Below, one piece after another: positions 13,956-16,514 of a stretch of 16,514 nucleotides of DNA. Source of the stretch: a virus (lineage: Duplodnaviria; Heunggongvirae; Uroviricota; Caudoviricetes); the IMG/VR virus record IMGVR_UViG_2681813234_000010, positions 1 to 16,514 of that record; one strand, given 5' to 3'. Made by a program: the position numbers and the translations under genes. The notes beneath the pieces are model-generated. The model made no database searches and was not told the DNA's origin. It saw nothing but the letters and a program-made list of their open reading frames with translations. Each line of letters opens with the position of its first letter. The first letter of the stretch is position 1.

Positions 13956-15463
13956 TGTTCTGGAATAAAAAAGAAGTCACACAAGAAGCTAAACCTAAGA
14001 AACAAAAACAAGAGCGTAGTACTAAACCATCAACACTTAAACGTGATATTCAGGCAGTACGCAACACATCGGTTATGAATTTTGGATTTAATGCTAATTC
14101 AGGAAGCAATATCAACTTTCTGATATTTAAAGCACTACCTACCATGCGAGCGTTTTCACGTGATGCAGTACTTAAAAACCCAATTGGGCGAAAGTACATG
14201 AACCTTTCCGTGGATGGTGTAGTAGGTTCTGATGGTGTTTATGTGAAACCAGCGGTAGAGATTGACGGCAGCGAAGATGAAATTAACCAGATTAATGAAC
14301 AATTAGAGAAACTATTTGATCGTTGGGCTTATGATCCAGACCGCTTTAGCGTCGATGGTGCTTTAAGTTTCGAGCTATTCCAACAAAATGTAGAGAAGAT
14401 TAGGGTACAAGATGGTGAATGCTTTATCAGAATTCATACTATTAACCGTCAAATAAAATTAGAAATCTTAGATACTGCTCGTTTACAGCAATCCAATAAT
14501 CAACATTTAGCCAATGGTAATTATATCAGTAATGGTATCGAATTTGACCAATGGCACAGACCAGTAAATTACTATTTCTCTAGATTTGATCCCGTTACGT
14601 ACACGTACAGTACTGGAGATTATGAAGTCATTCCGGCTAATGAAATATGCCACTACTTCATAGCAGACCAGCAAGGGCAGGAACGCGGATTACCCGATTT
14701 AGTCGCTACAAGTAAGTTAATTGAAGATCTGAAGAACTTCACAGAGGCTGCATTAACAGCAAAACGTGTAAGTGCTTCCAGTATGGCATTCATTACTAAT
14801 AATAACGACACTACCAGTACAGATCTGTTAGGTGCTGATGAGCGTGATGAAGTTACACCAGTATACACAGAGTACTTTGAAGCGGGCTTTATTGGTGAAT
14901 TAGGTGAAGGGCAGGACATTAAAACTGTCACTCCGACGAATGGTGTAGATGGTATCGATCAGTTTACTAATGAACTCATGAATCAAATTAGCATGGGCTT
15001 AAACGTAACTAAACAGGCTCTATTATCTGACACATCTAATGCTTCATTCAGTGCTGCACGATTAACAGAAAAACTACAACAAACCACTTTCCGTACTCGA
15101 ACCAATGTACTTATCAGTAAAGTACTCAAACCAATCTATATAGCTTGGTTAAAGAATGAAATGATTAATAACAGCAAATTGAATCTCAGTTTCTCAGACT
15201 TTGATGATCTCATTTGTGCTCGCTACATTCTACAAAAGCCAATTAGTTTAGATCCTGTAAAGGATATACAGGCTGAACTACTTCAATTGGAAGCAGGTAT
15301 TAAATCTAAAACTCAGGTTATCGCCGAACTTGGTGGTGATCCAGTCAAGGTATTAGCAGAGGTACAGGCAGAAAAGGAAAAAGAAAACCCAAACAAGGAA
15401 GTTAACCAGGATGGAAATCAAAAACCAGAAGAGGGAACTAACGATACCCCTACAGGCGATTAA
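13955..15463 (+). CDS. Portal protein (lambda gpB-like)
   Basis: 502-aa ORF with GGAG 9 nt upstream. [49 protein letters not shown] parallels lambda gpB LLRYIAAGLGVSYEQLSRNYAQMSYSTARASANESWAYFMGRRKFVAS. Gene order (terminase, portal, protease) is as expected. Confidence 0.85.
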
Positions 15464-16514
15464 TACAGAATCGCGAACTATCGATGTAGCGTTTTGCTCA
15501 GAAACACCAGTAGAGCGTGAAATCAATGGTGAAATCTATAATGAAATCCTTCTATGCGGTTCTGATAACGCAGACCTACGCCGTCTTAATCAAAATGGTG
15601 CAGTACTCTTTAATCATAATCGTGATGATCTCATTGGTGCTGTTGTATCTGCACATATGGACGCCGACCGTGTAGGACGTGCAACGCTACGTATTAGTAC
15701 TACCGCTAATGATGAATGGGAAATGATTCAGGAAGGCGTACTAACACATATCAGTATTGGCTATAACATTAATGATTACTACATTTCTGGAAATAATATC
15801 TACGTTTCCGATTATGAAATCTATGAAATTAGCTTAGTTACAATACCAGCAGATGCTTCTGTAGGCGTAGGCCGTTCAATGGAATCCGATATTGAAATTG
15901 ATTCACTAAATAAAGCAGGTGAAACAATTCAAAAGGATCAATTCATGGAAGAAACAAATAACGATAGCGAAATTGAAACGACAGTAGACGCTACCGAACA
16001 GGAAGTTAAAGACGAAGTTGAAGAAGTAGTAGAACACGTAGATGAAGTTAAACGCGATCTAAGTGATGAAGAACTTTTAGATATTCTTTCTAAACGTCCT
16101 GACTTACTCAACAAAGTACAAGGTGAAGAACCGGAAATTATAAATAGTACTGATGATACTGAACGTGTACGCGAACTAGAAGCACTCGGTAAAGTACTTA
16201 ATATTGATGTATCGGATGCCATTGGTAAAGGAATTACCGTGACCGATTTCAAACGTCAATTGAATGACATTAAAAACAATCCTAATCATGATAAGGAAAT
16301 CAAATCGATGGATAAAAATCTATTAAAGGATATGCTACGTGCTATCAAAGCCGGTGATAAAACCTCTCTTGAAGGTTATGAATTCGGTAAGAATGGTTAT
16401 GTACGTGCTGTAGTACCTTCAACTAATACTACTACGGCTGCTGGTGTAGTCGCAGATGATCTACAAGACCAATATATTCCAGAGCTATTAAAGCTATTAG
16501 ACTGGCCCCCTGAA
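15411..16514 (+). CDS. Prohead protease (HK97 / S78-like), 3' partial; continues past the end of the window; not in the supplied ORF track
   Basis: Frame is open from ATG 15411 to the window end (368 codons, no stop). [12 protein letters not shown] ... ISIGY ... [15 protein letters not shown] matches the HK97-family prohead protease pattern (His, Ser, and the E-x-S-L-V-x-x-P-A block). An acidic, scaffold-like stretch follows. The start overlaps the portal gene end by 53 nt. Confidence 0.7.

What the first reader, a model, noticed from the sequence alone, without database searches (positions are those of the whole stretch)
15411..16514. Prohead protease ORF missing from the ORF track, with an acidic scaffold-like segment and capsid-like tail in the same frame
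The frame stays open for 368 codons to the window edge. After the S78-like protease block there is an acidic, helix-prone region ([34 protein letters not shown]...). This is followed by sequence that looks like the beginning of a capsid or scaffold domain (...[28 protein letters not shown]). That suggests a fused protease-scaffold(-capsid) gene or nested genes. It is absent from the supplied track, presumably because no stop codon lies inside the window.
Basis: seen in the sequence. Interest (0 to 1): 0.35.

Follow-up and report, generated by a model that had tools for sequence, protein, structure and literature searches.

The report
IS2-truncated phage protease–scaffold–capsid fusion gene
The open frame is the front part of a prophage gene that fuses the head-maturation protease, a scaffold segment and the major capsid protein in one 608-residue protein, which is a known arrangement, but this copy is cut at codon 363 by an IS2 insertion sequence whose first 17 bases are the last 17 bases of the window.

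Summary
An ATG at 15411 opens a frame that runs 368 codons to the window edge. It carries an S78 prohead-protease domain, and H69 and S115 align with the HK97 gp4 catalytic His65 and Ser114. An acidic, disordered linker and a helical scaffold segment follow.

The fusion reading is right for the lineage. A 99.8%-identical relative has the same first 362 residues and continues as one 608-aa ORF ending in an HK97-fold capsid domain. Sixty loci from many phyla show the same uninterrupted frame. This is a known kind (PHROG 617, and the NCBIfam "prohead protease/major capsid protein fusion" architecture).

- **IS2 truncation.** All five close relatives match the window exactly up to base 16497. Bases 16498-16514 (TAGACTGGCCCCCTGAA) are the exact left end of IS2. 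This copy is therefore most likely a truncated pseudogene with a predicted 378-aa product, and "LDWPPE" is IS-encoded.
- **Internal start.** An in-frame Shine-Dalgarno plus ATG lies just after the protease domain (M179; AAGGA 15933-15937, ATG 15945-15947). It is conserved across phyla, which suggests nested translation of a scaffold-capsid product, as in lambda C/Nu3. This is inferred, not shown.

Overall this is an ordinary prophage head gene and of modest interest.

The parts
15411..16497 (+). Native part of the protease-scaffold-capsid fusion gene (codons 1-362 plus the first base of codon 363). The intact gene in relatives is 608 codons.
   Evidence: Translation. The first 362 residues are identical to the intact 608-aa ORF of L004. 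All five close relatives align up to 16497 and no further.
15456..15860 (+). Prohead serine protease domain (S78, HK97 gp4-like), residues about 16-150. Candidate catalytic codons: H69 = 15615-15617 and S115 = 15753-15755. Conserved E139 = 15825-15827.
   Evidence: Pfam PF04586 matches residues 61-150 at 36.7 bits against a cut-off of 21. H69, S115 and E139 are invariant in 40 homologs. hhalign pairs H69 and S115 with gp4 H65 and S114. AlphaFold gives a beta-rich domain over residues 16-150 with pLDDT about 80.
15876..16061 (+). Acidic linker, residues 156-217, net charge -17. It is hypervariable in length and sequence among homologs and predicted to be disordered.
   Evidence: Composition, alignment A2, pLDDT below 50.
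15933..15947 (+). Candidate internal ribosome-binding site and in-frame start: AAGGA at 15933-15937, a 7-nt spacer, then ATG at 15945-15947 (M179). The predicted product is a 430-aa scaffold-capsid protein in intact relatives.
   Evidence: Sequence. An SD+ATG at this domain boundary recurs in most of 60 loci: best linker ATG median dG is -6.55 against -2.7 in control windows, p = 2e-16. It is also present in phages VP882 and DCP80. Use as a start site is inferred, not shown.
16065..16352 (+). Helical scaffold segment (equivalent to the HK97 delta domain), residues 219-314.
   Evidence: AlphaFold helices at 219-236, 247-287 and 303-314. The TIGR01554 profile, which includes the HK97 delta domain, aligns from its position 44 at residue 266 of homolog P0002.
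16293..16310 (+). Second, weaker candidate internal start: AAGGA at 16293-16297, a 10-nt spacer, then ATG at 16308-16310 (M300, invariant in 40 homologs).
   Evidence: The Lys codon that forms the AAGGA is AAG in 10 of 10 enterobacterial loci, against 28% AAG gene-wide. Seen only in the enterobacterial subfamily.
16446..16497 (+). First about 17 residues (346-362) of the HK97-fold major capsid domain. The rest is missing from the window.
   Evidence: Pfam Phage_capsid covers 346-604 in P0001. Foldseek matches of the relative's model: R4C MCP 8gta (E = 3.5e-15) and HK97 gp5.
16498..16514 (+). Left terminal 17 nt of insertion sequence IS2 (or a relative with the same end). This is the insertion breakpoint in codon 363.
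   Evidence: A 17/17 match to bases 1-17 of IS2A of E. coli K-12. Relatives diverge exactly here. The 17-mer is unique in the window and absent from the 88 other loci fetched.
13955..15463 (+). Lambda-family portal gene, immediately upstream and overlapping the fusion gene by 53 nt. Part of the head module: terS 11069-11617, terL 11523-13412, a 176-aa head-tail joining protein 13425-13955, then the portal.
   Evidence: Pfam, PHROG and NCBIfam hits. The same gene order is seen in VP882 and L002.

Best explanation
**What it is.** The frame is the 5' 60% of a prophage head gene. In intact form that gene encodes one 608-residue polyprotein with three parts:
- an N-terminal S78 (HK97 gp4-type) serine protease;
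- an acidic disordered linker followed by a helical scaffold segment that plays the role of the HK97 delta domain;
- a C-terminal HK97-fold major capsid protein.

**Likely mechanism in intact relatives (inferred).**
1. The capsid domain assembles into a procapsid with the scaffold and protease parts facing inward. The protease is carried into the shell because it is covalently tied to the subunit, so it needs no separate targeting peptide.
2. Once inside, the protease cuts away itself and the scaffold, leaving a mature capsid protein of about 265-270 residues.
3. A conserved in-frame Shine-Dalgarno plus ATG just after the protease domain (M179 here) probably also yields a protease-less scaffold-capsid protein of 430 aa. 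That would make protease-bearing subunits a minority, the same logic as the nested lambda C/Nu3, Mu I/Z and herpesvirus UL26/UL26.5 genes.

**This window.** The gene is broken. An IS2 element is inserted after base 16497, in codon 363. The expected product is a 378-residue protease-scaffold fragment with an IS-encoded tail and no capsid domain. On this reading the prophage cannot build heads by itself.
For: **Shown**
- Open frame and protease domain.
- Catalytic His and Ser align with HK97 gp4 H65 and S114 and are invariant in 40 homologs.
- Intact 608-aa ORFs with Peptidase_S78 61-150 and Phage_capsid 346-604 in relatives. Their DNA is 94.8-99.8% identical to the window over the aligned stretch, and no other capsid gene follows: the next genes are a 107-aa head-tail attachment protein, a 130-aa protein, a 916-aa fibre/spike and a tail tube protein.
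- The intact relative matches PHROG 617 end to end, E = 1e-80.
- The AlphaFold model has four parts: a beta-rich protease domain, a disordered acidic linker, helices, and an HK97 fold. Its top Foldseek hits are phage capsid proteins.
- Sixty loci from Proteobacteria, Verrucomicrobiota, Gemmatimonas and others each carry one uninterrupted frame.
- IS2: the window and all five relatives align up to base 16497 only. The remaining 17 nt are identical to the first 17 nt of annotated IS2A.
- The chimeric reading frame stops 10 codons beyond the window if the element continues as in K-12.

**Supporting the inferred internal start**
- 68% of loci have a linker ATG with anti-SD duplex energy of -6 kcal/mol or better. 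Only 9.6% of all linker positions and 15% of control windows reach that (Mann-Whitney p = 2e-16). Eleven of 14 clusters at 50% identity show it.
- The purine-rich motif persists even where the encoded residues change (KDQF, KEEL, EREL, EGEL).
- In VP882 the internal site (AGAGGTG, -9.4) scores better than the annotated start (-4.3).
Against: - **Capsid domain.** None lies inside the window. The fusion is read from relatives, not from this sequence.
- **IS2.** The evidence is only 17 nt. The transposase genes, the other junction and the target duplication lie outside the window, and the junction was not found in any collection searched.
- **Protease activity, cleavage sites and internal initiation.** None of these has been tested.
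- **SD-like motifs.** They can also occur as translational pause sites.
- **Exceptions.** About a third of loci fall short of the -6 kcal/mol threshold. Seven of them have no convincing SD+ATG at all: L015, L016, L028, L035, L047, L069 and L070.
- **Independence.** The loci share ancestry, so the p-values overstate the support.
- **Sub-threshold profile scores.** TIGR01543 (46 bits against a cut-off of 59) and NF045541 (119 bits against 525) are below their curated cut-offs.
Confidence: 0.8

Rival explanations
1. The full-length fusion is the only translation product. Every capsid subunit carries its own protease and scaffold, and the conserved SD-like motif plus Met is either a leftover of the ancestral separate capsid-gene start or a ribosome pause site between domains.
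For: HK97 has gp4 and gp5 only 2 nt apart, so loss of one stop codon would leave the old RBS and ATG in frame as a relic. All database annotations show a single CDS. Some loci lack the motif.
Against: A relic should decay, yet the motif is kept across lineages only about 25% identical in protein, inside a linker that is otherwise hypervariable. It also sits at typical SD-ATG spacing of 6-9 nt.
Confidence: 0.3
2. The gene in the source genome is intact. On this reading the 17 terminal bases are an assembly or trimming artefact, such as a chimeric contig end at a repeat or a minority sub-population carrying the IS.
For: Only 17 nt are seen, the junction is absent from all public collections searched, and the closest relative (99.8% identical) is intact.
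Against: The foreign bases begin exactly at base 1 of the annotated IS2A element and match 17 of 17. Fewer than 0.01 chance matches are expected, even allowing 3 mismatches. Contigs ending just inside an IS are what short-read assemblies produce at true insertions. Other homologs in the database are truncated with IS5-end-encoded tails, so IS hits in this gene do recur.
Confidence: 0.12
3. The N-terminal domain is a degenerate, non-catalytic S78-like fold that serves only as extra scaffold, with maturation done by a host protease or another phage protease.
For: The TIGR01543 equivalog cut-off is not reached. The hhalign probability against gp4 is only 59%. No solved structure was matched by sequence.
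Against: The His, the Ser and the E-x-S-L-V-x-x-P-A motif are invariant in 40 homologs and kept in loci from distant phyla. The Pfam score is above its gathering cut-off. The flanking ORFs searched in the head module (window and L002) gave no other protease domain, apart from the Peptidase_S74 chaperone domain at the C-terminus of the fibre protein.
Confidence: 0.05

Closest known systems
PHROG 617 / PHROG 4523 fused 'major head (and protease) protein' of Hapunavirus-like and related phages (Vibrio phage VP882, Enterobacter phage Arya, Escherichia phage ECOO78, Xanthomonas FoX phages)
   Same: One ORF of about 600-650 aa with an N-terminal S78 protease and a C-terminal HK97-fold capsid protein. 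The gene order is the same: terL(gpA type), a roughly 176-aa protein, a lambda-type portal, then the fusion gene overlapping the portal's end. VP882 has the same internal SD+ATG.
   Different: Only 33-40% identity over the protease part to any deposited phage, and no nucleotide-level match in the phage collection. This copy is truncated by IS2.
NCBIfam NF045541 'prohead protease/major capsid protein fusion protein' (scaf_prot_MCP2)
   Same: The same named architecture. The protease-scaffold part aligns to profile positions 1-250 at E = 1.7e-34.
   Different: The score (117-127 bits for full-length relatives) is far below the curated 525-bit cut-off, and the capsid half does not align. This is a different subfamily with the same design.
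HK97 gp4 (protease) + gp5 (delta domain + capsid protein)
   Same: The protease family and catalytic residues, the scaffold as an N-terminal domain of the capsid protein, the HK97 fold, and the protease-then-capsid gene order (PMC10275583 abstract as shown).
   Different: HK97 has two genes separated by a stop codon and 2 nt. On established knowledge, its protease enters the prohead through a C-terminal targeting segment. Here the link is covalent and a long acidic linker is inserted.
Pseudomonas phage MD8-like gp5: protease-scaffold-MCP in one gene
   Same: A published case of all three head-assembly functions proposed to lie in one gene (PMC8508860).
   Different: The MD8 protease is ClpP/lambda C-like (S14/S49 type), not S78, and its capsid part is Mu-like.
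Nested protease/scaffold genes: lambda C/Nu3, Mu I/Z, herpesvirus UL26/UL26.5 (established knowledge; PMC8508860 notes that protease and scaffold share one gene in lambda and P2)
   Same: An in-frame internal start gives an abundant protease-less product that shares its C-terminus with a rarer protease-bearing product. This is the proposed logic for M179.
   Different: In those systems the shared part is only the scaffold and the capsid protein is a separate gene. Here the shared part would include the capsid protein itself. Internal initiation is inferred here, not demonstrated.
IS2 (IS3 family) of E. coli
   Same: The terminal 17 nt are identical to the left end of IS2A in K-12.
   Different: Nothing beyond 17 nt can be seen. 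The host appears to be a Scandinavium-like enterobacterium rather than E. coli.

Membership tests
Peptidase S78 (HK97 gp4-type prohead protease) | Match to Pfam PF04586 above the gathering score | tested here: met
   36.7 bits against a cut-off of 21, residues 61-150
Peptidase S78 (HK97 gp4-type prohead protease) | Catalytic His and Ser equivalent to HK97 gp4 His65/Ser114 (residue identities recalled from the literature) | tested here: met
   hhalign pairs H69 with H65 and S115 with S114. Both are invariant in 40 homologs.
Peptidase S78 (HK97 gp4-type prohead protease) | TIGR01543 equivalog cut-off | tested here: not met
   46.2 bits against a cut-off of 59, E = 5e-12
Peptidase S78 (HK97 gp4-type prohead protease) | Gene sits between the portal and the capsid coding sequence | tested here: met
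   Portal at 13955-15463, protease from 15411, capsid domain downstream in the same frame in relatives
Peptidase S78 (HK97 gp4-type prohead protease) | Proteolytic activity on the scaffold/delta domain | not testable with these tools
   Needs expression of wild-type and S115A constructs
HK97-fold major capsid protein (Pfam PF05065) | Phage_capsid domain present in this window's ORF | tested here: not met
   Only residues 346-362 of the domain lie before the IS2 breakpoint, and there is no Pfam hit in the 368-aa translation
HK97-fold major capsid protein (Pfam PF05065) | Phage_capsid domain and HK97 fold in the intact orthologue | tested here: met
   PF05065 covers 346-604 at 63.8 bits. Foldseek hits: 8gta at E = 3.5e-15, and HK97 gp5.
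Protease-MCP fusion, PHROG 617 | End-to-end match of one polypeptide to the fused-family profile | tested here: met
   The intact L004 protein matches over residues 2-603 against profile positions 5-620 of 626, E = 1.1e-80. The window fragment matches over 2-315 against positions 5-287, E = 3.4e-45.
NCBIfam NF045541 prohead protease/MCP fusion protein | Score above the curated cut-off (525 bits) | tested here: not met
   117-127 bits, with only the N-terminal 250 profile positions aligned
Nested in-frame genes (lambda C/Nu3 type) | In-frame internal start codon with a ribosome-binding site at the protease/scaffold boundary | tested here: met
   AAGGA, 7 nt, then ATG at M179. The feature is enriched across 60 loci.
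Nested in-frame genes (lambda C/Nu3 type) | A second polypeptide actually initiated at the internal site | not testable with these tools
   Needs initiation-site ribosome profiling or N-terminal proteomics
IS2 (IS3 family insertion sequence) | Terminal inverted-repeat sequence | tested here: met
   17 of 17 nt identical to the annotated left end of IS2A
IS2 (IS3 family insertion sequence) | orfA/orfB transposase genes, the right end, and a 5-bp target duplication | not testable with these tools
   These lie beyond the window end. Searches for both junctions in the public collections found nothing.

The most novel reading that the evidence does not exclude
The single head gene would be a nested translation unit. 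The full-length protease-scaffold-capsid protein (66.8 kDa) would be a minor product that carries the protease into the shell. Most subunits would start at the conserved internal SD+ATG (M179, 46.9 kDa). In the enterobacterial subfamily a third start (M300, 33.2 kDa) might add scaffold-less capsid protein. The protease: scaffold: capsid ratio would then be set by three ribosome-binding sites in one frame. I found no description of this for S78-capsid fusions in the library searched.
Probability: 0.45. Interest if true: 0.45.

Novelty: new member of a known kind. Interest (0 to 1): 0.27.

Why it matters
For annotation, this frame should be called a disrupted (pseudogene) copy of a protease-scaffold-major-capsid fusion gene, followed by an IS2 end. 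It is neither a free-standing protease nor an intact fusion. As far as the sequence shows, the prophage is head-defective.

More broadly, the cross-phylum conservation of an in-frame ribosome-binding site and ATG between the protease and scaffold parts gives a simple, testable account of how these widespread single-gene head modules avoid placing a protease on every subunit.

If that account is wrong and all 415 subunits of a T=7 shell do carry a protease (T=7 is assumed, not shown), that would also be informative for procapsid packing and maturation. None of this changes known principles of HK97-type assembly.

Tried and rejected
**Searches that found nothing**
- Megablast of the portal-fusion region against the phage collection, and of the ORF against complete E. 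coli genomes. The element is not a known phage or an E. coli prophage at the DNA level.
- Exact searches for the IS2 junction in genome, metagenome and viral collections, and for the expected right-hand junction in viral contigs.
- Sequence search of the protease domain against the PDB. It returned only spurious beta-trefoil design hits with E above 0.008.
- Six further literature searches for S78 protease-capsid fusions or internal starts. They returned only a ClpP-type analogue (MD8, PMC8508860) and unrelated papers. Two further calls failed on term syntax.

**Ideas rejected**
- That the shorter database homologs (297-397 aa) are natural split versions ending near M300. Their C-terminal tails are aberrant. 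One is an exact translation of an IS5 end and two are near-exact, so they are insertion-truncated copies.
- That M300 is conserved in distant homologs. It aligns to gaps outside the enterobacterial subfamily.
- That the window's left end also lies in an IS. It does not.
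Full report
**1. The observation**

Translating 15411-16514 on the + strand gives 368 codons without a stop. The frame starts at an ATG that lies 53 nt inside the 3' end of the upstream 502-codon ORF, 13955-15463. With the window's composition (37% GC, stop probability 0.072 per codon), a given frame staying open that long has a chance of about 1e-12. The mechanical ORF list does not contain it because it runs off the end.

**2. What the window part encodes**

- **Protease.** Pfam finds Peptidase_S78 at residues 61-150 (36.7 bits against a cut-off of 21). 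NCBIfam gives the HK97 proheadase equivalog TIGR01543 below its cut-off (46 against 59 bits, E = 5e-12). It also gives the N-terminal 250 positions of NF045541, 'prohead protease/major capsid protein fusion protein' (E = 1.7e-34, far below the 525-bit cut-off).
- **PHROG families.** PHROG 617 ('major head protein', profile length 626) and PHROG 4523 ('major head and protease protein') match residues 2-315 and 3-283.
- **Catalytic residues.** A profile of 40 homologs aligned to HK97 gp4 places H69 on gp4 His65 and S115 on gp4 Ser114. The catalytic role of those gp4 residues is taken from the literature as I recall it. H69, S115 and E139/S141 of the E-I-S-L-V-T-x-P-A motif are invariant in the 40 homologs.
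- **Acidic segment.** Residues 156-217 are strongly acidic (22 D/E, 5 K/R). They are hypervariable in length among homologs and predicted to be disordered.
- **Helical segment.** Residues 219-314 are predicted helical.
- **Neighbours.** The upstream genes are terS, a gpA-type terL, a 176-aa head-tail joining protein and a lambda-family portal. This is a prophage head module.

**3. Whether it is a fusion**

The answer comes from relatives.
- The protein search returned 887 homologs. Most are 595-640 aa and carry both PF04586 and PF05065.
- P0001 (98% identical) is 608 aa, with Peptidase_S78 at 61-150 and Phage_capsid at 346-604.
- On its contig the next genes are a 107-aa head-tail attachment protein, a 130-aa protein, a 916-aa fibre/spike and a tail tube protein. 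There is no separate capsid gene.
- An IMG/VR contig (L004) is 99.8% identical to window 8051-16497. It encodes a 608-aa ORF whose first 362 residues are identical to the window's. That intact protein matches PHROG 617 end to end (E = 1.1e-80).
- An AlphaFold model of P0001 shows a beta-rich protease domain, a disordered linker, helices, then an HK97 fold from residue 355. Its best Foldseek matches are the roseophage R4C capsid protein 8gta (E = 3.5e-15) and HK97 gp5.
- A scan of species-representative genomes found 211 loci. In all 60 loci examined, taken from the 80 retained and drawn from Enterobacteriaceae, Acinetobacter, Rhodobacterales, Burkholderiales, Verrucomicrobiota, Gemmatimonas and others, one frame runs uninterrupted from protease to capsid.
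- Vibrio phage VP882 has the same gene order and a single 632-aa CDS.

The fusion is therefore real, widespread and already catalogued. A ClpP-type analogue has been described in print for MD8-like Pseudomonas phages (PMC8508860).

**4. What is different in this window**

- All five close relatives align to the window up to base 16497 and stop there. They are L002, L004, L005, L006 and L007, the last a prophage of Scandinavium lactucae V105_6.
- The relatives continue with ...AAAGCTAT|CTGCTCTTGGTG.... The window continues with TAGACTGGCCCCCTGAA.
- These 17 bases are identical to the first 17 bases of the annotated IS2A element of E. coli K-12. They occur nowhere else in the window or in the 88 other loci.
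- The simplest reading is an IS2 insertion in codon 363, with the contig ending just inside the repeat.
- If the element continues as in K-12, the frame stops 10 codons beyond the window. The product would be a 378-aa, 42-kDa protease-scaffold fragment ending LDWPPESPDNQYHLNK.
- The capsid domain is therefore not expressed from this copy, and the prophage should be unable to make heads.
- I could not see the rest of the IS or the other junction, so this step rests on 17 nt plus the exact breakpoint.
- Insertions in this gene recur. Three shorter database homologs end in translations of IS5 ends, exact for P0114 and near-exact for P0078 and P0066.

**5. How the intact gene probably works**

By analogy with HK97, where the delta domain of gp5 is the scaffold (abstract of PMC10275583, shown) and gp4 digests it, the inferred pathway is as follows.
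1. The C-terminal domain builds the shell.
2. The helical and acidic parts act as an internal scaffold.
3. The tethered protease removes everything N-terminal to about residue 330-345.

I then tested how general this is.
- In 60 loci the best in-frame ATG in the 82 codons after the protease motif has a median anti-SD duplex energy of -6.55 kcal/mol. Equal-sized control windows elsewhere in the same ORFs give -2.7 (p = 2e-16).
- 68% of loci reach -6 or better, against 9.6% of all linker positions. Typical sites are AAGGAG or GGAGGT at 6-9 nt from the ATG.
- Eleven of 14 clusters at 50% identity show it.
- VP882 has AGAGGTG (-9.4) there, against -4.3 at its annotated start.
- Among enterobacterial members the purine-rich motif persists while the encoded residues change.

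This argues for a functional internal start that gives a scaffold-capsid protein without protease. That would make the full-length protein a minority species which delivers the protease, the logic of lambda C/Nu3, Mu I/Z and herpesvirus UL26/UL26.5 (established knowledge). It remains an inference. The loci are not independent, some lack the motif, and SD-like motifs may instead be relics or pause sites.

**6. Comparison and verdict**

The feature is a member of the S78-protease/HK97-capsid fusion class (PHROG 617). It shares the NF045541 architecture but does not belong to that subfamily. It is an orthologue, nearly identical in sequence, of proteins already in public databases and annotated as 'phage major capsid protein'.

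Novelty is low. The only part that may be undescribed is the conserved internal ribosome-binding site, for which I found no report in the searchable library. Interest score: 0.27.

Noticed in passing
window 16293-16310: A second in-frame candidate start: AAGGA 10 nt upstream of ATG M300, which is invariant in 40 homologs. In 10 of 10 enterobacterial loci the Lys codon forming the motif is AAG, although AAG is only 28% of Lys codons in these genes. The neighbouring Lys is AAA. This could give a 309-aa capsid protein lacking most of the scaffold. It is not alignable in distant homologs.
   Followed up: partly
proteins P0114, P0078, P0066 (homologs): Shorter homologs (297-397 aa) end in tails that are translations of IS5 terminal repeats. 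KVRISGEILLG* is an exact match, and EGANKFLI and KVRTSS are near-exact. The same prophage head gene has therefore been hit by IS5-family elements in other enterobacterial genomes.
   Followed up: partly
window 1-1236 (+): The ORF at the left edge has the Recombinase and Zn_ribbon_recom domains of a large serine recombinase but lacks the N-terminal resolvase catalytic domain. It is cut by the window start. This is probably the prophage integrase, so the window may be a contig truncated at both ends.
   Followed up: partly
window 6110-7630 (+) and 9133-10287 (-): An HNH-endonuclease-domain ORF (242 aa) is immediately followed by a DUF6998 ORF (263 aa). A 384-aa DUF3800 protein lies on the opposite strand just upstream of the packaging genes. 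Several neighbouring ORFs of 170-250 aa have no Pfam match.
   Followed up: no
window 11069-11617 and 11523-13412: The longest terL ORF (629 aa from ATG 11523) overlaps terS by 95 nt. The gene call on the 97%-identical contig L002 is 596 aa, so the true terL start is probably about 33 codons further downstream.
   Followed up: no
whole window: GC content is only 37%, low for an enterobacterial host such as Scandinavium, in whose genome a 96%-identical prophage segment lies.
   Followed up: no
L001 (Escherichia phage DCP80, PQ671644.1, 1-12793): This 141-kb record is classified as a T4-like Tevenvirinae phage, yet its left end carries a gpA-type terL, a portal and a 666-aa protease-capsid fusion. 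All but the terL are annotated 'hypothetical protein'. It is the best phage hit to the query (33% identity over 84%). The module looks out of place for that taxon, so the record may be chimeric or misclassified.
   Followed up: no
L005 (IMGVR_UViG_2698536647_000002): This related viral contig ends only 12 nt beyond the position where IS2 is inserted in the window. I did not determine why it ends there.
   Followed up: no
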